This document shows, one piece after another, positions 38,576-61,748 of a stretch of DNA of 64,000 nucleotides. Every line of letters starts with the position of its first letter. Within the stretch, counting starts at the first letter, position 1. The notes beneath the pieces are model-generated. The model saw nothing but the letters and a program-made list of their open reading frames with translations, searched no databases and had not been told where the DNA came from. Source of the DNA: Terriglobia bacterium (GTDB lineage: Bacteria; Acidobacteriota; Terriglobia; JAIQFV01). Location of the stretch: the NCBI GenBank assembly GCA_041494885.1, contig JBGQBO010000007.1, positions 68,359 to 132,358 on the forward strand, given 5' to 3'. A program made the position numbers and the translations under genes.

Positions 38576-38899
38576 GAATTCATTTCCTGTGTTATACTTT
38601 CCGGAAGTCGATCATATGCCATTATTTGGCTTCCCACAGTCAAAACAACAGAGGCTGGTTGGGCCTCTTTTTCTTGAACCGTCGGCTAATTCAGTTATTC
38701 CGCCAGCGTTCACACGCTCAAATGAAAACACGGCCGGCTGCAGTGGATTTCTACGACCTTCCGGTCTAGAAGGAACCAGTCATCACTCCCGGAGAGTTAT
38801 GGTCACGCGTAAGCACAGGCTGCTTCAACCAGATGTTCGTCAGGAGACGGAAGTTGTCTGAGCCAGGATATTAAATCAAGACATTAAATTAGGAATGAC

Positions 38900-39736
38900 C
38901 TACGGCTTCGCCCCCTTGGTGTCAAAGAAATCGCGCAACGCATCTCCAAGAAAATTGAACGCCAGGACCGCCATCATCACGGCCACAGCAGGGAAGATGA
39001 CGAGATGGGGGGCATCGAAAAGGTGGATACGGCCGTCATTCAGCATGGACCCCCAACTGGGAGTTGGAGGAGGAACGCCCAGACCCAGAAAACTAAGGGT
39101 GGCCTCGGCCAGGATGGTGTTCGCCATTCCCAGGCAAGCCTGGACCACGATCGGCTGGATGGTGTTGGGAACCATGTGAATGAAGATGACCCGGCCGCTG
39201 GAAGCGCCCGAAGCGCGGGCGGCTGTGACGTAATCCATTTCCTTTGTCTTTAGGAATTGCCCGCGTGCCAGACGGGCAAACCCAATCCACCCGATCAGGG
39301 ACAGCGCCAGGATCAATCGTGAGAGACCCGGACCCAGAAAAGCGATAAAGGCGATGGCCAGCAGCACCCCCGGGAAGGCCATAAAACTGTTAATCAAAAC
39401 GAGGTTCAAAACCTGATCGAGTGTGCCGTTAAAATATCCACTGATCGCGCCAAGGTAACATCCGACCAGAAACGAGACCAGCATCACCGCCACACTGACG
39501 CTGATCGAAATTCGAGTGCCGTAAATCACCCGGGAAAGGACGTCTCGACCCAGCTCGTCACTTCCCAACCAGTGGGAGCCTGACGGGCCATTGAGCCGGC
39601 TTGCCAAATCCTGAACCGCCGGATCGTAGGGGGAAATCCATCCCGCCAACACCGCCACCGCCATCAATAGCACGATGAAGATTGCGCTGACGTAAGCGAG
39701 CCGGTTCTTCAGAAACACCGTACGAAGAAACATCAT
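38900..39736 (-). CDS. dppC: ABC transporter permease, DppC/OppC family.
   Basis: 278-aa ORF with 6 TM helices and an EAA-loop region. It overlaps the upstream permease. Confidence 0.75.
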   Translation of the reverse strand: MMFLRTVFLKNRLAYVSAIFIVLLMAVAVLAGWISPYDPAVQDLASRLNGPSGSHWLGSDELGRDVLSRVIYGTRISISVSVAVMLVSFLVGCYLGAISGYFNGTLDQVLNLVLINSFMAFPGVLLAIAFIAFLGPGLSRLILALSLIGWIGFARLARGQFLKTKEMDYVTAARASGASSGRVIFIHMVPNTIQPIVVQACLGMANTILAEATLSFLGLGVPPPTPSWGSMLNDGRIHLFDAPHLVIFPAVAVMMAVLAFNFLGDALRDFFDTKGAKP

Positions 39737-40653
39737 TCTATCCGAATACGCGGATCGACGAGGATATAGGCCATGTCCGTCAAAAAATTAACCACGATAT
39801 AAGTCAGGGCAATGGCCAAGATGCATCCCTGGACCAGGGGATAATCACGAAACTGGATCGCCTGCAGCGTGAGGCGGCCGATGCCCGGCCACGAAAAAAT
39901 GGACTCCGTGACAAAGGTTCCGGCAAGCAGGTTTCCAAATTGCAGTCCCACCACGGTTACAATGGGGATCAAGGAGTTTTTCAAAGCATGCTTGTAGAGG
40001 ACCGTGCGTCGTGGTAACCCCTTTGAGAAGGCGGTCCGGAGATAATCCTGGCCGAGTTCTTCAAGCATGGCCGAGCGGACCATTCGAGTGGTCACCGCCG
40101 CCAACCCAAGTCCGAGGGTGACCGCAGGAAGCACGAGATGTTTCAACCCGCCGATTCCAGATACCGGGAACCACATCAACTGTATTGAAAAAAGAAGTAT
40201 CAGCAGAGGCCCGAGGGCAAAGTTGGGGAGCGAAAGCCCCAGAAGTGAAACAAAACTGATCCAACGATCCTGCCCGGTATTCGATTTGACGGCTGCTTGA
40301 ACACCCGCGGGAATCGAGAACAACAAGGCCAGCACCAGGCTCGCCAGGCTGAGTTCCAAGGTTGCGGGATAACGTTTAAGCAGGGTTTTCAACACCGGTT
40401 CCTGGTAGCGAAAGGAGAGACCCAGATCGCCGTGCGCCAGGTTGTGCAGGTAATGCAAGTACTGGGTCTGGATAGATTGATCCAACCCCAGCGCGTGCCG
40501 GAGTTGTTGAACATCCGCGGGCTGGGCTCCTTCACCCAACATTTGAAGAACCGGGTCACCGGGAACGAGGTGAACCAGCAGGAAAATAAAGGTGACGACG
40601 ACAAAGATGCTGAGCCCCATGAATGCAAATCGTCGAAGGAGAATGAGCCACAT
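39733..40653 (-). CDS. dppB: ABC transporter permease, DppB/OppB family.
   Basis: 306-aa ORF with N-terminal MWLILLRRFAFMGLSIFVV and the BPD_transp_1 fold. Confidence 0.75.
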   Translation of the reverse strand: MWLILLRRFAFMGLSIFVVVTFIFLLVHLVPGDPVLQMLGEGAQPADVQQLRHALGLDQSIQTQYLHYLHNLAHGDLGLSFRYQEPVLKTLLKRYPATLELSLASLVLALLFSIPAGVQAAVKSNTGQDRWISFVSLLGLSLPNFALGPLLILLFSIQLMWFPVSGIGGLKHLVLPAVTLGLGLAAVTTRMVRSAMLEELGQDYLRTAFSKGLPRRTVLYKHALKNSLIPIVTVVGLQFGNLLAGTFVTESIFSWPGIGRLTLQAIQFRDYPLVQGCILAIALTYIVVNFLTDMAYILVDPRIRIE

Positions 40654-41507
40654 AAGTTCTGCGTTTCAGTGCCGGTTGAGTATCTGCTCCATCAATTGTC
40701 TCTGCTAACGCGATTTCTTCCCATTAAGGTCCGGGACTCCCCTTCCATACCCCGGGAGTAAGGTTCAAAACCTCCACCCTTCGATCCTGGACTCGAGCCC
40801 GTCACCCGAGCGGGCATTATAACAAAATCCCCCTCTGAGACCGACCCGACCTCATGGGCGAGTTGACCCCAGGCAACCCAAGCGCCCCCTGATGAATCAA
40901 CAGGCCTGTCGTGATAAGAGGTTGATATTTAGAAATTCATTCTGTTAGAATGTTGTCCTCTGATGAGACAGCCCTTGACCCTGACAAAGAAGCCCTTGCG
41001 CCGCGGTATGCGGCGCTTGACCGCCTTTCTAGCGCTTTGCGCTTTTTCCTTCTTTTCTTTTTCGCTGGGCCTGGAGCACACCTGCCTGACTCAGAGAGGA
41101 CCCGACTCCCCTGCACTTGCCTCAAGGATTACAAATGTGTCCGGGGGGGTTGAGGCTCCTGTTTGCTCCCGGCTCTTGGTTTCCAGCCAGCGCCGGGCGA
41201 CCACGAACCCGGGCGATGGAGTTTGCCTGGCCTGCGCCTGGTCGCAGTCACTGATCAAGCAAATTTCGATTGTACAACTCATAAGCCCTGCCCTGGTTAA
41301 TTCACTGTTGCTGACGCCTACCCAACGGATCATTCCATTTCATGATCTCTGCTGCGCAACTCTAAAACGAGGCCCTCCCAGCTTGTCCTCCGTCTAATTT
41401 CCTTTACTTCAATTGCTCAACAGTCGCCGCGTTCTACCTGCAAGATGTGTATTTCCCTTGCGGCGAGACTTTTGCCAACGCATTATCATTGTGAGGAGTG
41501 CCAATCC

Positions 41508-42809
41508 ATGTTTCCAAGGGCAAACCGTTCCATTGCCTTGGCTTTCATTGTTGTTTCATTCTTGTCCTCTCGTCTTCTGGAGGCTCAACCCCCGGCAACG
41601 CCTTCCGCCTCAAAACCGGCCTCCGTGATCACGATGAGCGTGGCCCTTCAGCTCGCCATTGAGCACAACCAGAGCATGCGAGCGCAACGCCTGAATGTGG
41701 ATCAGTCGAAGGCGAACGAGATCACGGCCGCGTTAAAGCCGAACCCTGTTTACACCACCACAAACGAGGATTTTCCGATTTTTAATCCCAATCAGCTGAT
41801 CGCAGACAATCTCCGGAACAATCAGGAGTTTCTTCAGTCGATCAGTTATACCTTCGAGCGTGGTGGAAAAAGACAGAAACGAATCACGGTGGCCCAGGAC
41901 ACGACGGACGTCGTTTCAAAAAGTGTCGCCGACTTCGAGCGCCAACTGAAATTCCAGGTGGCCCAGGCCTTCGTCAACGTGTTGCTTGCAAAATCCAGTC
42001 TAGAATTTTCGAAGGATGATCTCAAGGACTTCTCCGAGGTGGTATCGATCAACAAGAGTCGCCTCGATGCCGGGGACATTTCTGAGGCCGACTATCTGAA
42101 GATCGCCCTGCAAAAACTCCAGCTTGAACAGGATGTATCGGCCGCGGAACTGGGCCTCGAACAGAGTAAGGCGGTCTTGCGTCAACTCGTCGGATTCGAG
42201 ACGGTGGCCGAAGATTACGACGTGCTGGGCGAGTTGGGGCATAAGAAATATGTCATCGGTCCCGATGAAATCGCGCGCCAGGCGTTGCTTCAGCGTCCCG
42301 ACTTCCTGGCTGCTCAAAGCGCCGTCAAACTCGCCGACGACACCGTCGCACTCGCTTATGGCAACCGGGCGCGAGACCTCACAGGGGAATGGGAATACAA
42401 GCGCAACGGGCCGGTCAATGGAGTCGGATTCGGGTTCTCCATTGACCTGCCCGTCCATGACCGCAATCAGGGGGAAATAGCGCGCAGCAAGGTGGCCGCA
42501 CGGCAGGCCGGGGAATCACAATCGGCAGCGCGCGCCAGTGTGCTTACCGATGTCGTCAACGCCTACTCCGGTTTCAAGGCGAATGATCGTATCGTGTCCC
42601 TCTATGAATCGGGCTATCTCGAACAGGCCACCCAGTCCCGACAAATCAGCAACTACGCCTATCGCAAAGGAGCCACCAGCTTGCTTGATTTGCTCGACGC
42701 CGAGCGAAGCTACCGCGCTGTTCAACTTGCTTATCGTCAGGCCCTGTCCGCTTACATGCTCAGCGCTGAACAAATCAACCTAGTGGTCGGAAAGCAGGTG
42801 TTGCAATGA
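41508..42809 (+). CDS. czcC: TolC-family outer membrane efflux protein (CzcC-like), set 2.
   Basis: ATG at 41508 with GAGGAG RBS. Signal peptide plus OEP repeats. Confidence 0.8.
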   Translation: MFPRANRSIALAFIVVSFLSSRLLEAQPPATPSASKPASVITMSVALQLAIEHNQSMRAQRLNVDQSKANEITAALKPNPVYTTTNEDFPIFNPNQLIADNLRNNQEFLQSISYTFERGGKRQKRITVAQDTTDVVSKSVADFERQLKFQVAQAFVNVLLAKSSLEFSKDDLKDFSEVVSINKSRLDAGDISEADYLKIALQKLQLEQDVSAAELGLEQSKAVLRQLVGFETVAEDYDVLGELGHKKYVIGPDEIARQALLQRPDFLAAQSAVKLADDTVALAYGNRARDLTGEWEYKRNGPVNGVGFGFSIDLPVHDRNQGEIARSKVAARQAGESQSAARASVLTDVVNAYSGFKANDRIVSLYESGYLEQATQSRQISNYAYRKGATSLLDLLDAERSYRAVQLAYRQALSAYMLSAEQINLVVGKQVLQ

Positions 42810-44017
42810 CAAACACTCAACGAAGAACCGCGGATGAACTGGAGAAATTCGTTCCGGGGAGGAGTCGCTGCCTGGCTCTTCTCCTCTCGGGCCTTTTGGC
42901 AATGATGGCGGGTGCATGCAGCACGTCGAAGGAAGCCACACGTTCCGCCGCGCACGAAGCCGAGAATAACGAACCCAGCTTGTTCGTCATCCCTGCAAAC
43001 CAGCTCCCGCATCTTCAAATCATCCCGGTTCAGAAGGCCGCCTGGGCACTCACGATTCGCACCACGGGGACTGTCGACTGGGATAACGACCACACCACAC
43101 CCACGATCACGCAGGTGACCGGGCCGATTACCCGGATTCTGGCGGACACCGGGGCAGAGGTCAGGGTGGGACAGCCGCTCCTGGAGGTTTCAAGCCCCGA
43201 TGTGACCGGCGCCATCGCAGCGTACCGGGTGGCGAGGAATCGCCTGAATCTCGCGACTTCGACTCTGAACCGGAGCCGGGACTTGTTGGATCATCACGCC
43301 CTATCGCAGAAGGATTTCGAAGGCGCTCAAGCCGACTATAACGATGCCACCACACAGGTTCAAACCAGCCTGCAGGCATTGCGAATCTTCGGAATCACCC
43401 AAAAAGAGATCGAAGAAGGCGAAAAACAGGGCGTCCCCATTAATCCTCAACTGACCGTGAGAGCCCCCATCAGCGGGATGGTGGTTCAGAAGCTCGTATT
43501 TCCCGGCCAACTCATCCAGGCCGGCGCCACCACCTGCTTCCTGATCAGCAACGTGTCGACCGTGTGGGTTCAGGGTCACATTTATGAAAAGGATTTGACC
43601 TCCGTGCGGGTGGGAGATCTTGTGGATGAGACGAATACGGCTGTCTCCGAGAACTTTCACGGGGTCATTTCTTACATTGGGGCGATGGTGGACCCCGCGA
43701 CTCGCACGACCCCGGTCCGGATTGTCACACGCAATCGCAATGGGCTCCTGAAAAAGGACTTGTTCATGGACGTCGTCATTCACACCCGCACCAAGAAGGA
43801 TGTCCTCGCAGTGCCCGCCTCCGCCGTTCTCTATAACGCGGAGAATCAGCCTTTTGTTTACACCCAAGTGGAGGCCGATAAATTTGCTCAACGGTTGGTC
43901 ACCATTGGGTCTCAACAGAAAAATCAAATGGAAATCGTGAGCGGGTTGAAAGAGGGGGACAAGATCGTGTCGGAAGGGAGCCTCTTCCTGCAGTTTGCCA
44001 ACAGCTATCAGCATTAG
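42806..44017 (+). CDS. czcB: Efflux RND periplasmic adaptor subunit (CzcB-like), set 2, without an N-terminal HMBD.
   Basis: 403-aa ORF with HlyD/MFP barrel-sandwich motifs. Its start overlaps the czcC stop. Confidence 0.8.
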   Translation: MTNTQRRTADELEKFVPGRSRCLALLLSGLLAMMAGACSTSKEATRSAAHEAENNEPSLFVIPANQLPHLQIIPVQKAAWALTIRTTGTVDWDNDHTTPTITQVTGPITRILADTGAEVRVGQPLLEVSSPDVTGAIAAYRVARNRLNLATSTLNRSRDLLDHHALSQKDFEGAQADYNDATTQVQTSLQALRIFGITQKEIEEGEKQGVPINPQLTVRAPISGMVVQKLVFPGQLIQAGATTCFLISNVSTVWVQGHIYEKDLTSVRVGDLVDETNTAVSENFHGVISYIGAMVDPATRTTPVRIVTRNRNGLLKKDLFMDVVIHTRTKKDVLAVPASAVLYNAENQPFVYTQVEADKFAQRLVTIGSQQKNQMEIVSGLKEGDKIVSEGSLFLQFANSYQH

Positions 44018-44101
44018 TGGGTGGGGCGCGGCCCGCTTGGTCATCCACCGCGGCCGGGACCGGGAGGCTTCCCTGGGCCTCGCGTTCCAGAGAAAACATC
44101 T

Positions 44102-47100
44102 ATGATCAATCGCATCGTATCCTTCGCGCTTTCCCAGCGGTTTCTCATTATCATGACCATGATCTTCTTGATGATCTGGGGGATCATTTCGTTTCAAAAG
44201 CTGCCCATTGATGCGTATCCCGATCTTTCGCCGCCGCACGTGCAAATCATCACTCAATGGCCGGGCCACGCGGCCGAGGAGGTGGAGCGGCTCATTACCA
44301 TCCCGATCGAACTGGAAATGAATGGGATCCCCCAACTTCAGGCCCTGCGCTCGATCTCCCTGTACGGGCTGTCCTCGGTCCAAATGAACTTCCAGTACGA
44401 TACGGATCCTTATTTTGTACGCGAGCAGTCGTTCGAAAGACTCCCCAACGCCGCGGTGCCGGCGGGCATCCAGCCCACCCTCGCTCCCTTGTTCAGCCCG
44501 AGTGGATTGATTTATCGTTATGTCCTCCAAAGTCCCGACCGGACGCCTCAGGAGTTGAAGACTTTTGAAGATTGGGTGGTGGAACGGCATTATCGCGCCA
44601 TCCAGGGTGTGGCTGACGATTCAGGCTTTGGTGGAGCAACGATGCAGTACCACGTCCTCCTGGATCCGAACAAGCTCCTCTCCTACAGTGTCACGGTCCC
44701 TCAGGTTGTCCAGCAGCTGGGCAATAACAACGCCAACGCGGGGGGAGGGTTCTATTCATCCGGGGGCCAGTTTTACTATGTCCGGGGCCTGGGCCTGGTG
44801 AGCACCCCTCAGGACATCGGAAACATCGTCGTCGCGACGCACAACGGGATCCCCACTTATGTCCGGGATGTGGGCAAAGTCGAGATTGGGCACGCCGTGC
44901 GACTGGGCCAGTTCGGCTACATGAAGCAGGACGACGCCGTTGAGGGTGTGATTCTCATGCGGGTGGGCGAGCAGGCGCAGGTGGTTCTCGACAAGGTGGA
45001 GCAGGTGACTGAAGACTTGAACAAAAACGTCCTCCCCCCGGATGTGAAGGTCGTCCCCTTTTACGACCGGCACTATCTCATCGAGGAAACAACACGCACG
45101 GTGGAAAAGAATCTCCTGCTCGGCATGGGGCTGGTCCTGATCATCCTGGGCTTGCTTCTGTTCAGTGTCCGCACGGCGTTGATTGTGGCGGTGACCATCC
45201 CCTTCTCTCTTCTGTTTTCATTCATCTGTCTGGACTGGAAACACATTCCGGCCAACTTGCTTTCGATTGGGGCCATTGACTTCGGCATCATCGTCGATGG
45301 CGCGGTGGTCATGGTCGAGAATATCTTTCGCGAACTCGCGGCGCGCCGCGAACAGGAGTACCACCTTATCGACGTCATCCGCGCGGCGGCGCGGGATGTG
45401 GAACGGCCGATTTTCTATGCGATTGCCGTAATCATTGCCGGGTACCTGCCTATTTACGCACTGACGGGGCCTGCCGGAAGGCTGTTTCAGCCAATGGCCG
45501 ACACGATGTCTTTTGCCCTGGTGGGGTCGTTGATCTGCTCGCTGACACTGCTTCCGGTCCTTTGTTTCTTCTTTCTACGGAAACACATCAAGGAGCCCGA
45601 CGTCAGGATCTATGAGCGCCTTCGCAGTCTCTACGGAGTGGCGCTGGCCTGGTGTCTGAAGCACCGCGCGGTCACTACCTTGATTTGCCTGGGAATCTTC
45701 GGGGCCTCCCTGCTGCTGATCCCTTTCATCGGTGCGGAGTTCATGCCTCATCTCGACGAAGGCGCCTTATGGGTGCGCGCCACAACGCCTTACACGATTT
45801 CCTTTGATGAGGCCGCCAAACTGGCGCCGAAAATCCGGAGCATCCTGATGAGTTTCCCTCAAGTCACGACGGTCGCCAACGAATTGGGACGCCCGGACGA
45901 CGGCACCGATCCCATTGGGTTCTTCAACGATGAGTTCTACGTCGGCTTGAAGCCTTACGATGACTCTTCATGGCAGGGCGAGATTCGAACCAAGCCAAAA
46001 TTGATCGATGCCATCCAGGAAAAACTGTCCGCCTTCCCCGGAGTCATTTTTAATTACACGCAACCCGCCGAAGACGCCGTCGACGAGGCTGAAACCGGAC
46101 TGAAGAGTGCTCTGGCAGTGAAGATTTTCGGCACCGACCTTGCCACCCTGGAAAGTAAGGCCAAGGAGGTCAAGAGGATTATTTCCAGTGTGCCGGGAAT
46201 CACGCATATCAGCATTGTCCAGGAACTTGGCCAGCCCAGTCTCATTATCGTGCCGGATCGCGACAAGATCGCCCGCTTTGGCCTCAACGTCGGAGATATC
46301 AACACGCTGATCGAGACGGCGATTGGCGGAAAGGCAGCCACCCAGGTCATCCAGGGAGAACGTCAGTTTGATTTGATCGTGCGGATGCAGGAGCCCTTCC
46401 GGGAAAACATGGAGGCCATCAAAAATCTGCTGATCGCCACTCCGGACGGCCAGCATCTGCCCTTAAGCCAGTTTGCCGATATCAAGGTGAGCAACGGCGC
46501 CTCTTTTGTCTATCGTGAATCGAATTCGCGTTACATCGGGATTCAGTTCAGCGTGGAGGGCAGGGATCTGGCCAGCGCTATCGGAGAAGCGCGAAGCAAG
46601 GTGGACCAGCAGGTCAAGCTTCCTATTGGTTATTCGTTTGACTGGGGAGGTGAGTACAAGGAATACCTGGCGGCACGCTCGCAAATGAAGCTTATTGTTC
46701 CGCTGACGGTTTTGATTATTCTCCTCATCCTCTTTGCCCTCTATGGCAATATGAAATTTCCATTCATTATCATGTTTAGCGTGCTCGTCACCCAACCGGT
46801 GGGGGGCTTGCTGGCCCTCAAGCTGACCGGCACAGACTTCAGCGTTTCCTCAGGGCTTGGGTTTGTCGCCCTGATGGGCGTCGCTGTTCAAACCAGCGTG
46901 ATTCTCTACTCCTTCATCAACAAGCTTCGACTCGAAGGGAAGGATCCGCTCACAGCGACGTATGAGGCCTCGCTCCTGAGATTGCGCCCCATTCTGATGA
47001 CCGCACTCGTGGCGTGTTTCGGCCTCCTTCCTGCCGCCATGTCGACTGGGATCGGCAGCGATTCGCAAAAGCCATTTGCCATCGTTATCGTCGGCGGAAT

Positions 47101-47185
47101 GATCTCCCGCCTGCTTTTATCCATCTTTCTCGCCCCTGTTCTGTATGCCCTCGTTGCGCGCAAGGATGATGTGCTGAAGGTTTGA
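44102..47185 (+). CDS. czcA: Heavy-metal efflux RND permease (CzcA/CusA-like), set 2.
   Basis: Starts MINRIVSFALSQRFLIIMTM. Length is about 1027 aa. The C-terminus is ...GIGSDSQKPFAIVIVGGMISRLLLSIFLAPVLYALVARKDDVLKV. Confidence 0.9.
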   Translation: MINRIVSFALSQRFLIIMTMIFLMIWGIISFQKLPIDAYPDLSPPHVQIITQWPGHAAEEVERLITIPIELEMNGIPQLQALRSISLYGLSSVQMNFQYDTDPYFVREQSFERLPNAAVPAGIQPTLAPLFSPSGLIYRYVLQSPDRTPQELKTFEDWVVERHYRAIQGVADDSGFGGATMQYHVLLDPNKLLSYSVTVPQVVQQLGNNNANAGGGFYSSGGQFYYVRGLGLVSTPQDIGNIVVATHNGIPTYVRDVGKVEIGHAVRLGQFGYMKQDDAVEGVILMRVGEQAQVVLDKVEQVTEDLNKNVLPPDVKVVPFYDRHYLIEETTRTVEKNLLLGMGLVLIILGLLLFSVRTALIVAVTIPFSLLFSFICLDWKHIPANLLSIGAIDFGIIVDGAVVMVENIFRELAARREQEYHLIDVIRAAARDVERPIFYAIAVIIAGYLPIYALTGPAGRLFQPMADTMSFALVGSLICSLTLLPVLCFFFLRKHIKEPDVRIYERLRSLYGVALAWCLKHRAVTTLICLGIFGASLLLIPFIGAEFMPHLDEGALWVRATTPYTISFDEAAKLAPKIRSILMSFPQVTTVANELGRPDDGTDPIGFFNDEFYVGLKPYDDSSWQGEIRTKPKLIDAIQEKLSAFPGVIFNYTQPAEDAVDEAETGLKSALAVKIFGTDLATLESKAKEVKRIISSVPGITHISIVQELGQPSLIIVPDRDKIARFGLNVGDINTLIETAIGGKAATQVIQGERQFDLIVRMQEPFRENMEAIKNLLIATPDGQHLPLSQFADIKVSNGASFVYRESNSRYIGIQFSVEGRDLASAIGEARSKVDQQVKLPIGYSFDWGGEYKEYLAARSQMKLIVPLTVLIILLILFALYGNMKFPFIIMFSVLVTQPVGGLLALKLTGTDFSVSSGLGFVALMGVAVQTSVILYSFINKLRLEGKDPLTATYEASLLRLRPILMTALVACFGLLPAAMSTGIGSDSQKPFAIVIVGGMISRLLLSIFLAPVLYALVARKDDVLKV

Positions 47186-47368
47186 GGGGGGAGTGAATCA
47201 GGATTTGCTACCAGCAGATCCGGGTAGAGTATTGAGACCCTCCTACCCATAGGCCTGGTCTTTGAGTAGGTGTCCTGATTTGGAATCTAGGTTTAAGGAC
47301 GTTGTCATTAATCCGGTTTTTTTGTGCGTTGGCATCGACGTGGTTTTTTCTAGCTTGTTCGGGTAACT

Positions 47369-47728
47369 ATGAACTCAAAGCAGAGAGACAGGCTGCTTAT
47401 CGGAGCACTCATTGCGCAGGTTGTGGTTGTGCAGTTTGCGCTAGATGCCCACTATTACCTGCACTTGCCGAGTTTGCTCCGATCCCAACGCACGGCGTTT
47501 AAGAGTACATCCTCAGTAGTCTCCCCAACGCCTCACTCCGACTGTGAGTTTTGCAGAACCGCCCAGTCGTATCACAGCCTTGAGGCAGTCCAAACCTATC
47601 TGAGAGTCCGCATTCCTGAGGTGTTGGCAGCGCGGGAGCTCGAGGCGGAAGGGCCCTTCGCCCTTTTTGTTTTTCCCCATGCCAGCCGTGGTCCCCCTCG
47701 TTTGAATCTCCGATCAATCCCAATTTGA
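47369..47728 (+). CDS. Candidate small protein (119 aa) between czcA2 and the receptor gene, with a His/Cys-containing hydrophobic N-terminal part. An alternative 66-aa Cys-rich ORF at 47302-47502 lies in another frame.
   Basis: Hydrophobic N-terminal segment LLIGALIAQVVVVQFAL, then HYYLH and HSDCEFC. There is no clear RBS. Codon usage is more genome-like than the overlapping 47302 ORF. Confidence 0.3.
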   Translation: MNSKQRDRLLIGALIAQVVVVQFALDAHYYLHLPSLLRSQRTAFKSTSSVVSPTPHSDCEFCRTAQSYHSLEAVQTYLRVRIPEVLAARELEAEGPFALFVFPHASRGPPRLNLRSIPI

Positions 47729-47826
47729 CTCTACCCAACGAAGCCTCGATTGAACGTCGCCAAGCGCCATCATTCGAGAGCCGTATTCACATATCATCTT
47801 AAAAACATTTGGATGGGAGATTTCAT

Positions 47827-50418
47827 ATGAAGAAGCAGATTATTTTTATCATTCTTTTGATCGGGCTCGTGGCTGGGAACTTCAATGCTCATGCACAATC
47901 CATGGGACAAGCAGGAACGATCACCGGGACCGTTGCTGACCCTTCAGGGGGCGTCGTCCCAGGGGCTAAGGTCGAGATTAAGAATTTCATGACCGGTTAT
48001 GACCGCACGGAGACGAGTGATGCCTCGGGAAATTTCCGCTTTCTGGATGTGCCTCCCAACAACTATCACCTTCAAGTCGTTGCGAAGGGATTCCAGACTT
48101 TCCAACAGGATCTCAACGTGAGAACCTCAGTCCCCATTCATCTCAATGTCCAGTTAAGACTCGCGGCCGAATCAACAACGGTAGATGTTCATTCCGACAA
48201 TGAGAGCATGATTGAGAATGTTCCCACGGCACACACCGACGTGGATAGCTCGGTTTTCTCAAAACTTCCTACTACGTCGCCCGGCTCTGGGGTGAGTGAC
48301 GCCATCACTCTTGCCACGCCCGGAGTGGTCGCGGATTCCAACGGCTTCTTTCATCCCATCGGAGATCATGCCCAAACCGGGTTCTCCGTGGACAACCAGC
48401 CCATCACGGATCAGCAGAGCAAGCTGTTTTCGACCTCTCTGCCACTAAACGCCTTTCAATCCATGGAGGTGATTGCGGGCGCACCACCGGCTGAGTACGG
48501 GGACAAGACCAGTTTAGTGGTCAACGCCATCACACGCTCCGGTGTCGGGGCGAAGAAACCGTTTGGAAGCCTATCTTTGAATTACGGCTCCTTCGGAACT
48601 TACGGCGAGAACTTTTCCTTTGGGTTTGGCAATCTTAAGGCAGGCAATTTTCTTGTGGCCGATACGGTTCGATCTGGACGGTATCTCGACACACCGGAAT
48701 TTTCACCCCTACATGGCAAGGGGAACGGTGAGACCGTCTTTGACCGGATTGATTATGAGCCCACGGCACACGATTTCTTTCATTTGAATCTCTTCTTCGC
48801 CCGTAGCTGGTTTCAAACTCCGAATACCTTTGATCAACAGGCTTCGGGACAGGACCAAAGACAACAAATTCGTTCATTCAACCTCGCGCCGGGTTATGTC
48901 CACATCTTTGGTACCTCGGCGACCCTGACGGTGAGCCCGTTTTTCCGCCATGATGAAGTTCAATATTTCCCAAGCCTGGACAGTGCCGCGGATCTCCCGG
49001 CCACCATCCGGCAAACACGCTTCCTCAGCAATCTGGGGATCAAAGCGGATATTGCTTACGTCCATGGGATTCACAACCTCAAGGTTGGGGCTCAGCTCCA
49101 GCACACCTTTTTGAGTGAGAACTTCAGATTGGGGATTACTGATCCAACATTCAACCCCATTTGCCTCAACGTCGATGGTCACCCAGTGGTCGATCCCCAA
49201 TTCACCAATCCAAGACAATGTGCCGGAGCCGGCTTCACGGTCAATCCCGGCTTGTCTCTGGGGCTGATTCCGTTCGATCTTTCACGCAAGGGCAGCCTGT
49301 TCGGATTTCTGGATCACACCGACGTCAAGGAAGAGGCGTTCTATGTCCAGGACAGCATCACTTGGGGCGGGGCGAACATCCAAGCGGGTCTCCGCGGCGA
49401 TATTTATCGAGGATTGTCCGCCGCTTCGTCCATCGAGCCCCGAATCGGGCTTTCCTATCTGTTTAAACCAACGGGGACGGTTCTTCGACTGGCCTACTCG
49501 CGGTTCTTCGAAACCCCTTACAACGAGAACTTAATTCTTTCCAGTGCCACCGGCGCGGGCGGCCTAGCAACCAATGTCTTTGGTGCTTTTGGTGTGACGC
49601 CCCTGGAACCAGGACGCCGCAATCAGTTTAACGCCGGTTTTCAACAGGCCGTGGGTAAGCATGTCACGGTTGACGCCAGCTACATCTGGAAATACACCGA
49701 CAATGCCTATGATTTTGACACGTTGTTCAGCACGCCCGTGGCCTTTCCCATTGCATGGAGGAAATCTAAGATTGATGGGCTCTCCGTGCGCGTCAATCTG
49801 GCCGAGATTAAGGGATTCAGCGCTTTCACTGTGCTTGGCCACACACGCTCTCGGTTCTTTGGGCCCGAGATCGGCGGGTTGATATTTAATTCACCCATCA
49901 ACAGTTTCGTGTTCCGCATTGACCACGACCAGGTCCTTCAACAAACCACAAATTTCCGGTACCAGTACAAGAAGAATGGTCCCTGGGTTTCCTTTATTTG
50001 GCGTTACGACAGCGGGCTGGTTGCCGGAAGCGTTCCCGACTTGGACACGGCGTTTTCGCTGACTGCAGATCAACAGGCCGCCATCGGCCTCTTTTGCGCA
50101 AATACCTTTGCAACGGTGACTGGCCCCCTCACAGGTTGCCCCTCAGGTTTGGTGGCTGGCGCAACCCGGCTCAGAATTCCGGCCTCAGGAACGGAAAGTG
50201 ACGATACTAACCCTCCGCGAATTGCCCCACGCCACCTATTTGATGTCGGCTTCGGAATTGATAACCTTTTTCACACCGATCGTCCTCGATTTACGCTCCG
50301 GTTGACCGCGGTTAACATCACCAATAGAGTGGCCTTGTACAACTTCCTTTCCACCTTCAGCGGCACTCATTTTGTGACCCCACGGGGCTATACGGCCGAA
50401 CTCGGGATTGTTTGGTAA
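47827..50418 (+). CDS. TonB-dependent-receptor-like outer membrane protein with an N-terminal carboxypeptidase-regulatory-like domain.
   Basis: Signal peptide MKKQIIFIILLIGLVAGNFNAHA, then GTITGTVADPSGGVVPGAKVEIKN...GNFRFLDVPPNNYHLQV (a CarboxypepD_reg-like domain), a long beta-barrel region, and a C-terminal aromatic residue ..ELGIVW. Confidence 0.7.
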   Translation: MKKQIIFIILLIGLVAGNFNAHAQSMGQAGTITGTVADPSGGVVPGAKVEIKNFMTGYDRTETSDASGNFRFLDVPPNNYHLQVVAKGFQTFQQDLNVRTSVPIHLNVQLRLAAESTTVDVHSDNESMIENVPTAHTDVDSSVFSKLPTTSPGSGVSDAITLATPGVVADSNGFFHPIGDHAQTGFSVDNQPITDQQSKLFSTSLPLNAFQSMEVIAGAPPAEYGDKTSLVVNAITRSGVGAKKPFGSLSLNYGSFGTYGENFSFGFGNLKAGNFLVADTVRSGRYLDTPEFSPLHGKGNGETVFDRIDYEPTAHDFFHLNLFFARSWFQTPNTFDQQASGQDQRQQIRSFNLAPGYVHIFGTSATLTVSPFFRHDEVQYFPSLDSAADLPATIRQTRFLSNLGIKADIAYVHGIHNLKVGAQLQHTFLSENFRLGITDPTFNPICLNVDGHPVVDPQFTNPRQCAGAGFTVNPGLSLGLIPFDLSRKGSLFGFLDHTDVKEEAFYVQDSITWGGANIQAGLRGDIYRGLSAASSIEPRIGLSYLFKPTGTVLRLAYSRFFETPYNENLILSSATGAGGLATNVFGAFGVTPLEPGRRNQFNAGFQQAVGKHVTVDASYIWKYTDNAYDFDTLFSTPVAFPIAWRKSKIDGLSVRVNLAEIKGFSAFTVLGHTRSRFFGPEIGGLIFNSPINSFVFRIDHDQVLQQTTNFRYQYKKNGPWVSFIWRYDSGLVAGSVPDLDTAFSLTADQQAAIGLFCANTFATVTGPLTGCPSGLVAGATRLRIPASGTESDDTNPPRIAPRHLFDVGFGIDNLFHTDRPRFTLRLTAVNITNRVALYNFLSTFSGTHFVTPRGYTAELGIVW

Positions 50419-50542
50419 GGTTCGATTGGCACCTCGAAGCTCGGTCTTGGGGTGGTCAGGTAGGATCTCATCTCGGACACACTGTCCGCGAGGATCACCC
50501 CTACACTCTGTTCGGGAAGGAGACAATCTAATTGCGGTTGCT

Positions 50543-50684
50543 GTCGACTGGGATCGGCAGCGATTCGCAAAAGCCGTTTGCCATCGTCATCGTCGGCGGA
50601 ATGATCTCCCGCGTTTCTGTCCATCTTTCTGGCCCCCGTGCTGTATGCGCTGGTCGCCCGGAAGGACGATGTCCTGAAGGTGTA
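50543..50684 (+). pseudogene. Orphan duplicated 3' end of a czcA gene (about 142 bp, roughly 88% identical to 47041-47185, with an indel that frameshifts it).
   Basis: gtcgactgggatcggcagcgattcgcaaaagcc(g/a)tttgccatcgt(c/t)atcgtcggcggaatgatctcccgc... ending ..gatgtcctgaaggtgtag. It translates to ..STGIGSDSQKPFAIVIVGGMISR and then shifts frame. Confidence 0.8.
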
Positions 50685-50844
50685 GTTGATGCAGGAAAAC
50701 ATCGGATCCTTGTCACCTTGAAGCGGACAATCCTATTCATCCCTCAATTGGCCCTTTGCACCTCCGTGCAGCCTTCATGAGCCAATGGTATAATGCCCCT
50801 TCAATTCAGTTTACATGTGACTTTACAAGCATAAGGAGCCTCTC

Positions 50845-52320
50845 ATGAGTGCAACTTCGGTCCCCGCAATTCAAGCGCAGCGACTCTTCATCGCCGGTGA
50901 ATGGCGCGATGGCGCGAAGGGAAAGACGTTCGACACGATCAATCCGGCCACAGGCGAAGTCATCACCACCCTCGCCTCCGCGGAAAAAGAGGATGTCGAC
51001 GCAGCGGTGGCGGCGGCGCGCCAAGCCTTTGACGATCGTGAGAGCGCATGGAAGAAGATGAGCGCCGCTGACCGCGGCAAGCTGCTCTGGAGGATGGCGG
51101 ACCTGATTGAGAAGAACATCGACGAATTCGCGCGCCTCGAAACCCTGGACAACGGCAAGCCCATCTTTGAATCCCGGTATGTGGATATGCCCATGGTGGT
51201 TGAGGTGTTTCAGTATTACGCCGGCTGGGCGACGAAGATTCTCGGCGAGACGATCCCCGTCAAAGGGAACTATTTCAGTTACACCCTGCGCGAACCGGTC
51301 GGCGTCGTGGCGGCGATTACCCCGTGGAATTTTCCATTGCTCCTGGCAAGTTGGAAGATCGCTCCGGCATTGGCGGCAGGCAATACCGTCATTCACAAAC
51401 CTGCCTCTCTCACCCCCCTGACCGCGCTGAAACTGGCTGCGATTGCACAGGAAGCCGGTGTCCCACCCGGAGTGTTCAATGTGATTACCGGCAAGGGCGC
51501 AACCGTGGGGGATGCCCTGGTCGAGCACAAGGGTGTGGACAAGATCGCTTTTACAGGCTCGACCGAAGTCGGGCGCGAGGTGATGCGTAAGGCAGCGGGC
51601 ACAGTGAAAAGGGTCTCTCTCGAACTCGGAGGAAAGTCCCCCAACATCGTTTTCGCCGACGCCGACTTGGACGCCGCCGCCCGGGGCGCCTACCTGGGCA
51701 TCTTTTATGGGAAGGGTGAAGTCTGTGCTGCCGGTTCTCGCCTCTTTGTGGAGGAATCCGTTCACGATCAGTTGATGGAAAAGCTCATCGCCCGTACCAA
51801 GAAGTTGCAGCCGGCGGATCCCATGGACCCCAAGACCCGATTGGGGGCACTGGTCAGCGAGGGTCAATTGGATTCCGTGCTGCGCTACATCGAATCGGGA
51901 AAGGCGGAAGGAGGGCAGCTGGTTGCCGGTGGCCAACGGGTACTGGTCAATGGCAAGGGCAGCTTCCTCCAGCCAACGATTTTTGACCACGTTGATCCAC
52001 GCATGACCATCGCGCGCGATGAGATCTTCGGGCCCGTGCTCGCCACCCTTTCTTTCAAGGGCATGGACGAGGGATTGAGCCTGGCGAATGACACCCTTTA
52101 CGGCTTGGCCGCCGCCGTGTGGACACGCGATATCAAGAGAGCGCATCGCGCTGCCCGCGAGTTAAGGGCCGGCACCATCTGGATTAACACCTACAACGTC
52201 TATGATCCCACCATGCCTTTTGGGGGGTACAAACAATCCGGATTCGGACGCGAACTCGGCATGCAGGCGCTTGACTTGTACACCCAAACCAAAAGCGTCT
52301 GTGTTGACTTAAGTGAATGA
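50845..52320 (+). CDS. NAD(P)-dependent aldehyde dehydrogenase.
   Basis: 491-aa ORF with ITPWNFPL, catalytic Cys region GEVCAAGSR and ELGGKSP. Confidence 0.85.
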   Translation: MSATSVPAIQAQRLFIAGEWRDGAKGKTFDTINPATGEVITTLASAEKEDVDAAVAAARQAFDDRESAWKKMSAADRGKLLWRMADLIEKNIDEFARLETLDNGKPIFESRYVDMPMVVEVFQYYAGWATKILGETIPVKGNYFSYTLREPVGVVAAITPWNFPLLLASWKIAPALAAGNTVIHKPASLTPLTALKLAAIAQEAGVPPGVFNVITGKGATVGDALVEHKGVDKIAFTGSTEVGREVMRKAAGTVKRVSLELGGKSPNIVFADADLDAAARGAYLGIFYGKGEVCAAGSRLFVEESVHDQLMEKLIARTKKLQPADPMDPKTRLGALVSEGQLDSVLRYIESGKAEGGQLVAGGQRVLVNGKGSFLQPTIFDHVDPRMTIARDEIFGPVLATLSFKGMDEGLSLANDTLYGLAAAVWTRDIKRAHRAARELRAGTIWINTYNVYDPTMPFGGYKQSGFGRELGMQALDLYTQTKSVCVDLSE

Positions 52321-52554
52321 TGTGTTTTATGATGCATGGTTTTCGCGGGCTGCCTTGCGATGCCATAGGCTTGGAGCACCCTTTGACCTATGACCTCCCG
52401 CCGGGCCATGAAAGCGGGACCCCAGGGTTTTGACCTCATCGTTCACATTGTGTAGATCCACTCCTTGCCCGACCCCGACCTGATGGGTGGCCAGGGTCGA
52501 TTCTCCCGGGATCCAACTCGTAGGACTTAAAGCATTCCTCATCAAGGAGATTCA

Positions 52555-53139
52555 ATGAAGACTAGACTTGTCGCTGGAGTATTCTTTGTATCGCTTGGAC
52601 TGCTGTCCTCCACCTTTCTCTTCGCGCAGGCTTCCAACGCTTCTCGAGTGGGTGTGATTAACATGCAGACTGCCATTCTCGAGTCCGTCGAGGGAAAGAA
52701 GGCCGCGGAGACGTTGAAAGCCAAATACGATGCCAAAGCTGCCGAGCTTGAGAAGAAAAGGAAGGAAATCGAAGATTTGACCGCCGAGTTGAAGAAGCAG
52801 GAGAAGAACCTCAGCGAAGATGCCCAGGCGCAAAAAACAAAGGCCATCGACACTAAGCAGAAGGAGTTGACCCGCGCGGGCGAAGATGCAAGTAACGAGT
52901 TCAAGCAACTTCAGGACGAGACCATTAATACAATCGGCAACAAAATCCTGAGGATTATCCAAGCCTACGCTGCAGAACAAAGCTATTCTCTTGTGGTTGA
53001 CAGCTCCTCCGCCCAGAGTGGAGTGCTTTACTTCAGTCCGACTACCGACATTACGACTGAAATCATCCGCCGGTTTGATACACAATCCACCACGGCCTCG
53101 ACGCCCAAACCAACTGCACCCGCCACGCCGAAGAAGTAA
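52555..53139 (+). CDS. skp: OmpH/Skp-family periplasmic chaperone.
   Basis: 194-aa ORF with a signal peptide, then a Lys/Glu-rich coiled coil typical of Skp. Confidence 0.7.
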   Translation: MKTRLVAGVFFVSLGLLSSTFLFAQASNASRVGVINMQTAILESVEGKKAAETLKAKYDAKAAELEKKRKEIEDLTAELKKQEKNLSEDAQAQKTKAIDTKQKELTRAGEDASNEFKQLQDETINTIGNKILRIIQAYAAEQSYSLVVDSSSAQSGVLYFSPTTDITTEIIRRFDTQSTTASTPKPTAPATPKK

Positions 53140-53256
53140 GACGCGCCGGAAGGGGGCGATTCTGCGAGCTGGAGAAGTGTATGAGAGACAACAACCTCGA
53201 AGTCCTTTGATGAATCAAAGTGATCAGTGCCATTGAAAGGAATCAGGGCTTAGCTT

Positions 53257-54237
53257 ATGAATACCAGTTTTCGGGAGAGAAATTCAGTTCTTGCCTTTGT
53301 TTTATTCGTTGCAATGATAATCGCCACCGCGGTTCCGCTCCAGGCAGTGGATCCCCAGACCACGGCCCCTCCCAAGCCGGCGCCCGAAACCGCCAAGAAA
53401 CCGGAGCCCAAGGGATCCCCGACTCCCGGGACGGCAAAAACAGACTTCGATAAAACCAATCAACGACTGATTGATATTATCCAGAATGCCTTCACGAGTA
53501 GGATCCCGCCGAACACGGAAATATCGGTCGCTGGAAGAACTCCGTCCAAGCTGGGCGGGCTGGACTCGGTGACGCTTGAGTTTAAGAACGGGGCTAACAC
53601 AAACCGTCTCGACATTTTGGTGACCGCCGACAATAAGTTTGCCGTGGTGGGACAGATCCTTGATCTTTCGAAAGACCCCTTTGCCGAAAACGTCGACAAG
53701 ATCAGCATGACGAACTCACCCGTGTTCGGAAACAAAAACGCCAAGGTGACGATTGTCGAGTATTCTGATTTTCAGTGCCCGTATTGCAGCCAGGCCTATC
53801 GTACCGTCGAAGACGATGTGATGAAGCAATTTGGAGATAAGGTGAAGTTGGTCTACAAGAACTTTCCGCTGCCCGGCCACGCGTGGGCCGAGAGCGCGGC
53901 CATTGCCGGCCTATGTGCCAATCGACAAAGCAACGACGCCTTTTGGGTCCTCTACCGGAGCTTCTTTGAGAACCAGTCGGAAATTAAACCGGAAAACGTG
54001 AAAGCCAAGACCCTCGAATACGCGGCAAAGGCTCAAATCGATACCAAGAAATTTGAAGACTGCTACGATAACAAGCTAACGCTGCCGCAGGTCAAAGCCG
54101 AGATGACCGAGGCGCAGTCGCTGGGCATTACGGGGACCCCTTTGTTTGTGATCAACGGCCATCCGCTTTCCGGGGTCCAGCCATTCAGTTCCTTCCAGAA
54201 AGTGATTGAGGACGAATTGAAGAAGAACCCCAACTGA
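53257..54237 (+). CDS. Secreted DsbA-family thioredoxin-fold protein.
   Basis: Signal peptide, Pro-rich linker, and CPYC active site (SDFQCPYCSQ). Confidence 0.7.
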   Translation: MNTSFRERNSVLAFVLFVAMIIATAVPLQAVDPQTTAPPKPAPETAKKPEPKGSPTPGTAKTDFDKTNQRLIDIIQNAFTSRIPPNTEISVAGRTPSKLGGLDSVTLEFKNGANTNRLDILVTADNKFAVVGQILDLSKDPFAENVDKISMTNSPVFGNKNAKVTIVEYSDFQCPYCSQAYRTVEDDVMKQFGDKVKLVYKNFPLPGHAWAESAAIAGLCANRQSNDAFWVLYRSFFENQSEIKPENVKAKTLEYAAKAQIDTKKFEDCYDNKLTLPQVKAEMTEAQSLGITGTPLFVINGHPLSGVQPFSSFQKVIEDELKKNPN

Positions 54238-54563
54238 GGATGTATGCCATGATTTCAAGGACCTACTACGGAGCTTTTCGGGGGCAAAGGGAACGGTCCG
54301 GTTTTTCCTCGAAGGTTAAACAGAACGTGCCCTGGCGGTGAGACCCCCATGCATCCGCGCGTATAGGTCTCGAAACTCAGACCAGACCCTTTTTGCAGTC
54401 TCGGATTAGGGATGCTGAACCAGAACTCGAACCAACCGGCTCTGCTTCAGCGCTGCCTCCCCTCGAATCGGACTCCCCTATTAATTGGGCTTAAGATCCC
54501 GCCACAATCTTGACAAAGTCTTTTAGTCTACTTACCATCGGGGCAATACCTTAAGAGGCCATC

Positions 54564-56603: not shown

Positions 56604-56679
56604 AGGGATCCCCCTTCAAACAGACGGGAAATGCAAAGCAACAGGACGGGCAATTCACAGTCAGTGCGAAAGCCGTTTC

Positions 56680-56730
56680 TCGATCAGATTTCAAGATCTG
56701 AAATTTCAGATTTGAGATCAGGCACTGCTT
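56680..56730. terminator. Cluster of overlapping perfect palindromes between convergent genes (candidate bidirectional terminator or hairpin).
   Basis: tcgatcagatttcaagatctgaaatttcagatttgagatcagg contains ATCTGAAA|TTTCAGAT (a 16-bp perfect palindrome) and cagat...atctg. Confidence 0.35.
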
Positions 56731-56923
56731 CGAAACGGGGTTAAAGATCAGCGCCGATGAGGGTGCTTTGAGCAGATCCAAAGTCCGGAACTCTGACGGG
56801 AGATCGCACCTGCAGGAAAAGAGATTTTGAAGTTTTTACTTATTCAGTCCAGTCCTCTCGAGATCTTCCTCCCACCGATTGGGAGAGGGCGTGTTTACCG
56901 AGGTACTGGGTTCGGAATTCGGG

Positions 56924-61680: not shown

Positions 61681-61748
61681 GGTTGGAAAAGGAGGCTGCA
61701 ATACCTCCCGCCTCCAGGATCTGAACACTAAGTGAGCGAGAGCAACTA

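What the first reader, a model, noticed from the sequence alone, without database searches (positions are those of the whole stretch)
47041..50684. A 3.3-kb receptor cassette bracketed by a direct duplication of the czcA 3' end
The last roughly 145 bp of czcA2 (47041-47185) recur at 50543-50684 as a degenerate copy, about 88% identical and frameshifted. Between the two copies lie a small His/Cys ORF and a TonB-dependent-receptor-like gene. Duplication of a target gene's 3' end is the classic footprint of site-specific integration, where the incoming DNA supplies a new 3' end and displaces the old one. No integrase or transposase is present, so it may be a decayed island or a recombination scar from a lost third czcA paralog. 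A metal-efflux and outer-membrane receptor linkage is itself notable.
Basis: seen in the sequence. Interest (0 to 1): 0.6.

Follow-up and report, generated by a model that had tools for sequence, protein, structure and literature searches.

The report
Leftover czcA gene tail, recombination scar
A 145-base leftover of the end of a metal-efflux pump gene sits just before the next gene and marks a spot where blocks of metal-transport genes are swapped by recombination; it is a real but fairly ordinary scar, not the footprint of a self-mobile element.

Summary
The repeat is real. Copy A is 47040-47185 (the end of czcA2) and copy B is 50542-50686. They are 88% identical (E 7e-47), and B has a 2-bp deletion. 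All 15 differing codons are synonymous, so B comes from a different, once-functional czcA allele and not from an in-place duplication.

Relatives show five arrangements:
- Two sister lineages (L172, L176) have czcA directly followed by aldH, which is the predicted "empty site".
- Two others (L001, L169) have a 7.4-kb uptake island between czcA and aldH and no B.
- A strain of the same species (L179, 98.7% identical flanks) has no czcCBA here at all. It still carries B, unframeshifted, joined about 27 nt further in.

So B is a stub at the right edge of a strain-variable island (40645-50567) that mixes three operons: czcCBA, small ORF + TonB receptor, and ZnuAB-like. There is no recombinase, no shared att core and no discrete element.

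The best explanation is recombination that is homologous on one side and illegitimate on the other (HFIR-like).

In passing, the "His/Cys ORF" (orf119) and the ORF before czcC both look like CruR/DUF2946-type metal-sensing leader ORFs.

The parts
40645..50567 (.). Strain-variable island. The conspecific strain L179 is 98.7% identical to the window up to 40644 and again from 50568, and carries entirely different genes in between.
40963..41397 (+). up144: small leader ORF before czcC2, with CLAC, 44 residues, then RGPP near the C-terminus (CruR/DUF2946-like).
   Evidence: motif definition from PMC9426467
41445..42809 (+). czcC2, outer-membrane factor (OEP).
42806..44017 (+). czcB2, membrane-fusion protein (HlyD_D23).
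44021..47185 (+). czcA2, an intact CusA/CzcA-family RND pump. The ORF runs from a GTG at 44021; the database copy P0121 is 1027 aa and starts at 44102.
   Evidence: (TIGR00914 916 bits, cut-off 701)
47040..47185 (+). Copy A: the working 3' end of czcA2, ending ...AAGGTTTGA as in the full-type relatives L001 and L169.
47186..47368 (+). Spacer after czcA2, 81% identical to the czcA-uORF spacer of L001.
47369..47728 (+). orf119: CruR/DUF2946-like leader ORF of the receptor, with an N-terminal hydrophobic helix, C59EFC62, 44 residues, then R107GPP.
47827..50418 (+). TonB-dependent-transporter-like outer-membrane protein, 863 aa (CarboxypepD_reg, weak Plug, barrel). It is 77-83% identical to the receptors of L081 and L084 but only 54% identical to the allele in L001, L169 and L179.
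50419..50541 (+). 123-bp spacer with no homologue in any fetched locus. Its right end is the non-homologous joint to copy B.
50542..50686 (+). Copy B: stub of a czcA 3' end, ending ...AAGGTGTAG like the empty-site relatives (...GTGTAA). It has a 2-bp deletion after 50612 and one adjacent C>T change that are absent from strain L179.
50687..50844 (+). Spacer to aldH. From about 50720-50745 onward it aligns with the aldH-proximal spacer of L172, L176 and L001, including the conserved TGGTATAAT at 50786-50794 (a likely aldH promoter, read from the alignment).
50845..52320 (+). aldH, aldehyde dehydrogenase. It is the conserved right flank, 99% identical to L179 and 91% identical to L001 and L172.

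Best explanation
Copy B is an inert stub of the 3' end of a czcA allele that once ended about 158 bp before aldH, as czcA still does in two sister lineages. The interval between the permease gene (39733-40653) and aldH is a recombination hot spot. Three leader-ORF-headed metal operons are gained, lost, swapped and reordered there between lineages, and even between strains of one species: czcCBA efflux, small ORF + TonB-dependent receptor, and small ORF + 433-aa protein + ZnuA/ZnuB.

At some point DNA ending 123 bp past the receptor gene was joined without homology to position -146 of a resident czcA. The other end of the exchange lay in homologous DNA. This would be recombination that is homologous at one end and illegitimate at the other (HFIR-like), or the equivalent crossover of a circularised fragment. 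The working czcA2 keeps its own complete 3' end (copy A), and the old end (copy B) was left stranded next to aldH, where it has begun to decay.

Shown: the repeat, its purely synonymous divergence, the empty sites, the strain polymorphism, the non-homologous joints, and the absence of recombinase genes.

Inferred: the recombination pathway, the order of events, and which of A and B was the resident copy.
For: 1. All 15 codons that differ between A and B are synonymous, including TGA versus TAG. The only lesions are the 5' truncation, a 2-bp deletion and one adjacent base change. So B evolved as part of a working gene until recently and is a different allele from A.
2. Empty sites exist. L172 and L176 have czcA-160/157 bp-aldH, share the terminal GTG-TAA with B's GTG-TAG, and have spacers that align with the one after B. 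A, L001 and L169 end GTT-TGA and run on into the uORF.
3. L001, L169 and L168-L171 carry czcA-uORF-receptor'-118-117-433-ZnuA-ZnuB-aldH without B. L081 and L085-L087 carry the receptor module inverted. L088 has only the Znu module. L177 and L178 have receptor plus Znu without czc.
4. The conspecific strain L179/L180/L181 has 98.7% identical flanks that start inside B (w50568). It has no czcCBA, it has Znu module + receptor' + B with an intact reading frame, and its joint lies about 27 nt further in.
5. There is no similarity left of 47040/50542, and the 123-bp spacer has no homologue, so the joint is non-homologous.
6. There are no integrase or transposase genes, and both flanks are housekeeping synteny.
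7. The relic is unique to this species among 96 loci that carry czcA ends.
8. HFIR is defined as homologous at one end and illegitimate at the other (PMC3240628). The same logic has been proposed for displaced 3' gene ends in T6SS and Rhs loci (PMC5361080).
Against: - The pathway itself cannot be read from the sequence.
- No parent sequence of the 123-bp spacer was found, so microhomology at the joint could not be assessed.
- Two different joints only about 27 nt apart in two strains is an odd coincidence for random illegitimate events. It may point to a preferred site, or to a second trimming event.
- The first 30-55 nt after B are not significantly similar to the empty-site spacers, so the claim that B's junction and the empty sites are the same event rests on register and length only.
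- No segment on the A side is unusually close to or far from sister lineages, so the direction of transfer is unresolved.
- Natural competence of these uncultured Acidobacteriota is unknown.
Confidence: 0.6

Rival explanations
1. A circular intermediate integrated by a Campbell-type crossover. A 3.5-kb circle carrying a czcA 3' fragment, orf119 and the receptor would integrate by a single homologous crossover within the last 146 nt of a resident czcA that abutted aldH, producing the two direct copies.
For: The final structure is exactly what such a crossover gives. The A and B heads are nearly identical (2 of 71 nt differ) while the tails differ at 15 of 71 nt. The ends of the Logan k=31 contig L175 overlap by 26 nt, so the assembly graph is also compatible with a circle. 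Empty sites exist.
Against: It still needs an illegitimate joint to close the circle. L179 has the same B head sequence (positions ~36-71) without any copy A, so the head similarity is not a by-product of a crossover in the window strain. L179's joint is at a different position. No replication or recombination gene lies in the 3.5 kb.
Confidence: 0.15
2. Site-specific integration of an integrase-less cassette, mobilised in trans, that targets the czcA 3' end and brings a replacement end.
For: Direct repeats of a gene's 3' end flank the insert. The heads share a 34-nt identical stretch. Relatives have an empty site. The element-borne copy differs only synonymously. From memory, not tested here: this resembles phage 21 and e14 integrated in E. 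coli icd.
Against: No integrase, transposase or other recombinase was found among the ORFs scanned within about 15 kb upstream and 10 kb downstream, and the unscanned ORFs there are collinear with housekeeping genes of relatives. The left half of the 'cassette' is collinear with sister genomes and continues there into other genes, so it has no discrete left end. The joint to the czcA end differs by about 27 nt in the conspecific strain. The receptor module also occurs inverted, or without any czcA nearby.
Confidence: 0.07
3. B is the remnant of a second, tandem czcCBA operon. An ancestor would have carried czcCBA-receptor-czcCBA'-aldH, and deletions removed all but the last 146 nt (119 nt in L179) of the second czcA.
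For: B diverged under purifying selection. B abuts aldH just as an intact czcA does in L172 and L176.
Against: None of the 96 loci with czcA ends shows two related czcCBA operons in tandem or any other stub. It would need two independent deletions ending within 27 nt of each other.
Confidence: 0.08
4. A local tandem duplication of the czcA end followed by neutral decay.
For: The two copies are direct repeats 3.5 kb apart.
Against: There are 15 synonymous and 0 non-synonymous codon differences. Homology ends exactly at the stop codon. B keeps outgroup character states where A and the sister lineages share derived ones. B is also present in a strain that has no copy A.
Confidence: 0.02
5. An assembly artefact: a chimera of co-occurring strains, or a circle plus an empty site resolved wrongly.
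For: Both island variants occur in runs that appear to belong to the same study, judging only from adjacent run accessions (SRR29604912 and SRR29604879). The k=31 graph cannot say whether the czcA body continues into A or into B.
Against: Only 34 nt are identical between A and B, which is shorter than the reads and the large k values used by usual assemblers. Every junction to the right of that 34-mer is reproduced at 100% identity by independent Logan contigs. B has private bases that neither A nor L179's B carries, so it cannot be a chimera of the two. The alternative path would give a frameshifted czcA.
Confidence: 0.03

Closest known systems
Homology-facilitated illegitimate recombination (HFIR) scars (PMC3240628; de Vries & Wackernagel 2002 and Prudhomme et al. 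2002, as cited in PMC5361080)
   Same: One side of the new DNA is collinear with homologous DNA. The other side is joined to the resident sequence without homology, inside a gene, and leaves a partial duplicate.
   Different: HFIR was defined experimentally in transformable or conjugating bacteria. Here it is only inferred from the end product in uncultured Acidobacteriota. The donor, the recipient and any microhomology at the joint are unknown.
Displaced ('orphan') 3' gene ends in Rhs, CDI and T6SS effector loci (PMC5361080)
   Same: Incoming DNA provides a new 3' end plus accessory genes. The previous 3' end is pushed downstream and persists as a fragment.
   Different: In those loci the new ends encode different toxins and the orphans keep immunity genes under selection. 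Here A and B encode the same amino acids and B has no partner gene, so nothing is diversified.
Gene 3'-end duplication at att sites of prophages and islands (phage 21 and e14 in E. coli icd, tRNA-gene islands). Recalled from memory, not checked here.
   Same: Direct repeat of a gene's 3' end, a replacement copy that differs mostly synonymously, and an empty site in relatives.
   Different: Those elements encode an integrase and use a fixed core site. Here there is no recombinase, no discrete element, and the joint position varies between strains.
Replacement-type flexible genomic islands between conserved flanks (general concept, from own knowledge)
   Same: Conspecific strains are 98.7% identical up to sharp boundaries and carry different gene sets in between. 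Receptor alleles are only 54% identical, and one allele is shared across species at higher identity than the genome background.
   Different: The content here is a set of metal-transport operons rather than surface polysaccharide genes, and one border is a gene stub.
CruR (DUF2946) copper-responsive upstream ORFs heading TonB-dependent-transporter operons (PMC9426467)
   Same: orf119 and up144 have an N-terminal export-type helix, a CxxC motif and a C-terminal R-G-P-P with a 44-residue spacing. Each is the first gene before a transporter operon, separated from it by an intergenic gap.
   Different: The Pfam score is below threshold. The motif is RGPP rather than RAPP. The phylum is Acidobacteriota. 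No test of metal response or Rho dependence was possible.

Membership tests
Site-specific integrative element at a gene 3' end | A recombinase (integrase) encoded in or next to the element | tested here: not met
   Pfam and NCBIfam scans of ORFs at 25.7-32.6 kb and 41-61 kb found none. The only hint is a 20-bit DUF772/IS1182-like N-terminal hit in a syntenic 679-aa gene, against a cut-off of 270 bits. ORFs at 32.6-40.7 kb were not scanned but are collinear with housekeeping genes of relatives.
Site-specific integrative element at a gene 3' end | The same core site and junction position in independent occurrences | tested here: not met
   The window joint is at czcA -146. The L179 joint is at about -119, attached to a different receptor allele.
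Site-specific integrative element at a gene 3' end | An unoccupied target site in relatives | tested here: met
   L172 and L176 have czcA directly followed by aldH.
Site-specific integrative element at a gene 3' end | A discrete element with two defined ends | tested here: not met
   The left part (A, spacer, orf119, receptor 5' end) is collinear with L001 and L169 up to w47870, and continues there into other genes.
HFIR-type recombination scar | One joint without homology, the other side homologous or collinear | tested here: met
   There is no similarity left of 50542 or 47040. The A side and the aldH side are each collinear with relatives.
HFIR-type recombination scar | Short microhomology at the illegitimate joint | not testable with these tools
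   No parent sequence of the 123-bp spacer was found in any fetched locus.
HFIR-type recombination scar | DNA uptake and recombination machinery active in the host | not testable with these tools
   The organism is an uncultured Acidobacteriota MAG lineage.
Tandem duplication | Copies derived from each other in place, with differences spread over codon positions | tested here: not met
   15 synonymous and 0 non-synonymous codon differences. B is also present in a strain that lacks A.
CruR / DUF2946 upstream ORF | Export signal, CXXC, C-terminal RAPP-like motif, spacing about 45 +/- 2, first gene of the operon | tested here: met
   orf119 has a hydrophobic helix at residues 9-25, C59xxC62, a 44-residue spacing and R107GPP, and sits 98 nt before the receptor. 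up144 has C88xxC91, a 44-residue spacing and R136GPP. These are the only two such ORFs in all six frames of the window (criteria).
CruR / DUF2946 upstream ORF | Pfam PF11162 gathering score | tested here: not met
   orf119 scores 18.5 bits against a cut-off of 23.7, E 0.0035. up144 has no Pfam hit at E <= 0.001.
CruR / DUF2946 upstream ORF | Copper-dependent, Rho-dependent control of the downstream gene | not testable with these tools
   This needs an experiment.
TonB-dependent transporter | Plug domain plus a 22-strand barrel | tested here: inconclusive
   The Plug hit has E 0.0035 and is below threshold. Close homologues carry PF25183 and PF07715 hits and are named TonB-dependent receptor by NCBI. 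No structure was predicted.
CusA/CzcA heavy-metal RND pump (czcA2) | TIGR00914 score above its cut-off and full length | tested here: met
   915.9 bits against a cut-off of 701.45, covering residues 28-1050.

The most novel reading that the evidence does not exclude
The last ~150 nt of czcA may be a preferred docking site for integrase-less 'leader ORF + TonB receptor' uptake cassettes. Two different receptor alleles are joined to it within 27 nt of each other in two strains of one species, empty sites exist in sister lineages, and the 34-nt identical head would be the exchange site. The cassettes would then move by an unrecognised trans-acting or host-encoded recombination system, possibly through a 3.5-kb circle.
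Probability: 0.07. Interest if true: 0.6.

Novelty: new member of a known kind. Interest (0 to 1): 0.3.

Why it matters
- It is a clean natural example, in uncultured soil Acidobacteriota, of gene blocks being exchanged without any mobile-element gene. A dated stub is left behind, still in frame in one strain and frameshifted in another, and it shows what the locus looked like before.
- It shows that efflux (czcCBA), outer-membrane uptake (TonB receptor) and inner-membrane uptake (ZnuAB-like) operons behave as interchangeable modules at one chromosomal site, even within a species.
- For annotation, the stub should be called a pseudogene fragment and not evidence of an island.
- The more useful by-product is that each module is headed by a CruR-like leader ORF. 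This points to a common metal-sensing control logic that could be tested.

Tried and rejected
1. Gene conversion of B's head by A within the window strain. I considered this because the head has 2 differences and the tail 15. I rejected it because L179, which has no copy A, has the same B head sequence.
2. A donor of the A side that is closer to the sister lineages. A segment-by-segment divergence ratio shows nothing unusual from A through orf119, so the direction of transfer stays open.
3. A simple inversion of the receptor module, as seen in L081, as the source of B. I rejected it because an inversion would leave the czcA fragment on the opposite strand.
4. A search for homologues of the 123-bp and 77-bp spacers in all fetched loci found none beyond the aldH-proximal part.
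5. The metagenome scan with AldH gave only one close relative, L088. Close relatives came instead from protein look-ups.
6. czcA1 (14574-17876) as the source of B: its C-terminus is unrelated.
7. A literature search for the icd / e14 / phage 21 analogy returned nothing usable. That comparison therefore rests on memory.
8. The weak DUF772/IS1182 hit in 54564-56603 is not a transposase. It scores 20 bits, the gene is syntenic in relatives, and it has no DDE domain hit.
Full report
**1. The observation**

The last 146 nt of the second czcA gene (ORF 44021-47185; the database copy starts at 44102) recur at 50542-50686. blastn within the window gives 88.0% identity over 142 nt, E 6.7e-47. No other part of the 64 kb matches, and the first czcA (14574-17876) has an unrelated C-terminus.

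The left edge of the repeat is sharp, with no similarity upstream of 47040/50542. The right edge is exactly the stop codon. Copy B has a 2-bp deletion after 50612 and is therefore frameshifted.

Between the copies lie orf119 (47369-47728) and an 863-aa outer-membrane protein (47827-50418). That protein has a CarboxypepD_reg domain and a weak Plug hit, and its homologues are named TonB-dependent receptor. aldH starts 158 bp after B.

Two independent k=31 Logan contigs from run SRR29604912 are 100% identical to window 47044-50571 and 50546-58320. The joints A->orf119, receptor->spacer->B and B->aldH are therefore all reproduced, including the frameshift.

**2. Copy B is not a decayed local duplicate**

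Of the 17 aligned base differences, 15 fall at third codon positions. Every one of the 15 differing codons is synonymous, including TGA versus TAG. B therefore spent nearly all of its divergence from A inside a working czcA gene.

B keeps the clade-specific GGMISR motif. In its last 71 nt it carries 8 private synonymous changes, and it retains outgroup states where A and the sister lineages share derived ones. Its first 71 nt have no private change.

**3. What relatives show**

The organism is an uncultured Acidobacteriota (Terriglobia/Bryobacterales) lineage. The window is the outgroup to three sister lineages (L001, L169, L172) at czcCB, czcA and aldH.

| Locus | Similarity to the window | Arrangement next to czcA / aldH | Copy B? 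|
|---|---|---|---|
| L001, L168-L171 | CzcA 95% | czcA, uORF, a receptor allele only 54% identical to the window's, two small ORFs (118 and 117 aa), a 433-aa protein, ZnuA, ZnuB, then aldH | No |
| L172 | CzcA 96% | czcA directly followed by aldH, 160-bp spacer, gene ends GTG-TAA | Empty site |
| L176 | CzcA 94% | czcA directly followed by aldH, 157-bp spacer, gene ends GTG-TAA | Empty site |
| L081, L085-L087 | CzcA 84% | The window-type receptor module inverted next to czcA, followed by the Znu module | No |
| L088 | AldH 85% | Only the Znu module between the permease gene and aldH | No |
| L177, L178 | Receptor 73% | Receptor plus Znu module, no czc | No |

B ends GTG-TAG, like the empty sites. 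A, L001 and L169 end GTT-TGA. The empty-site spacers align with the spacer after B from about 30-55 nt past the stop codon.

No locus has a second intact czcA, and no other locus among the 96 with czcA ends has a stub.

**4. A strain of the same species**

L179 (GCA_041490505.1), L180 (a JGI contig) and L181 (a Logan contig from SRR29604879) are 98.7% identical to the window over 38613-40644 and over 50568-62320.

Between those points the window has up144-czcCBA-orf119-receptor. L179 has a small ORF-429 aa-ZnuA-ZnuB-uORF-receptor' and no czcCBA.

The right-hand identity begins inside copy B. L179 carries B with an intact reading frame (CGC CTG CTT CTG), so the 2-bp deletion and the adjacent C>T change are private to the window strain.

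In L179 the stub is joined about 27 nt further in, to DNA that is collinear with the region downstream of the receptor in L001. The L179 receptor block is 89.5% identical to L001, against about 82% for the rest of the genome. That allele therefore moved between species.

**5. Interpretation**

B is the fossil end of a czcA allele that abutted aldH. It now forms the right border of a strain-variable island (40645-50567).

The A side (A, spacer, orf119, receptor 5' end) is collinear with sister genomes at ordinary divergence. There is thus no discrete 3.3-kb element. No recombinase gene lies in or near the region, and the joints differ between strains.

The simplest reading is recombination with one homologous end and one illegitimate end. 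This is HFIR as defined in PMC3240628, and the same logic has been proposed for displaced 3' ends in PMC5361080. The equivalent crossover of a circularised fragment would give the same product.

Still open:
- which copy was the resident one;
- whether B's junction and the L172/L176 arrangement come from one event;
- why two joints lie only 27 nt apart.

The k=31 graph alone cannot exclude a circle plus a frameshifted empty site. However, A and B share only 34 identical nt, so ordinary reads resolve this.

**6. What the genes between the copies probably do**

orf119 has an N-terminal hydrophobic helix, C59xxC62, 44 residues, then R107GPP, and it lies 98 nt before the receptor. up144, just before czcC, has C88xxC91, 44 residues, then R136GPP. 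These are the only two ORFs in all six frames of the window with this pattern.

The orthologues keep the pattern, and so does the 117-aa ORF before the Znu module in L001.

These are the hallmarks of CruR/DUF2946 copper-responsive upstream ORFs that head TonB-dependent-transporter operons (PMC9426467). A DUF2946 gene also precedes czrCBA in Caulobacter (PMC4176598). The Pfam hit is below threshold, so this is a resemblance in mechanism and not a proven family membership.

**7. Verdict**

The empty site and the displaced old end are real. Site-specific integration of a cassette is not supported.

The feature is a new instance of a known kind of recombination scar. It is of modest interest in itself and more useful as a marker of a modular metal-homeostasis hot spot.

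Noticed in passing
window 40963-41397 and 47369-47728; L001 16728-17081; L179 2673-3020: Each of the three metal operons (czcCBA, TonB receptor, 433-ZnuA-ZnuB) is preceded by a small ORF with CxxC, exactly 44 residues, then R-[GA]-P-P near its end. This is the signature of CruR/DUF2946 copper-sensing leader ORFs. In the window these are the only two such ORFs in six frames. Pfam scores are below threshold.
   Followed up: partly
window 47870 (codon ~15 of the receptor) to 50418; L179 6543-9722 versus L001 13344-16522: The receptor exists as two alleles only 54% identical in protein, with the break right after the signal peptide. The alternative allele is 89.5% identical in DNA between L179 and L001, although those genomes are about 82% identical elsewhere. 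This implies a recent cross-species transfer of the receptor.
   Followed up: partly
window 44102-45100: The first third of czcA2 is as close to L001, L169 and L172 (89-92%) as these are to each other, unlike the rest of the operon. This may be a recombination tract.
   Followed up: no
window 54564-56603: A 679-aa ORF has a weak N-terminal hit to the DUF772/IS1182 transposase domain (20-21 bits, far below the cut-offs). It is conserved in synteny in L081 and L179, and its middle looks proline- and serine-rich in the pairwise alignment. It is probably not a transposase.
   Followed up: partly
window 47644-47677: A terminator-like hairpin followed by a T run lies inside orf119, about 10 codons before the RGPP motif. 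It is partly conserved in relatives and could be part of an attenuation mechanism.
   Followed up: no
L175/L182 (SRR29604912) and L181 (SRR29604879): The window-type and L179-type island variants come from runs with adjacent accession numbers, which suggests that both variants coexist in one study site.
   Followed up: no
L031 13770-16289; L044 5936-8334; L051 2-1492: More distant Bryobacterales genomes also have receptor homologues (47-56% identical) next to czcBA. In L031 and L044 they are split into several tblastn pieces, so they may be pseudogenes.
   Followed up: no
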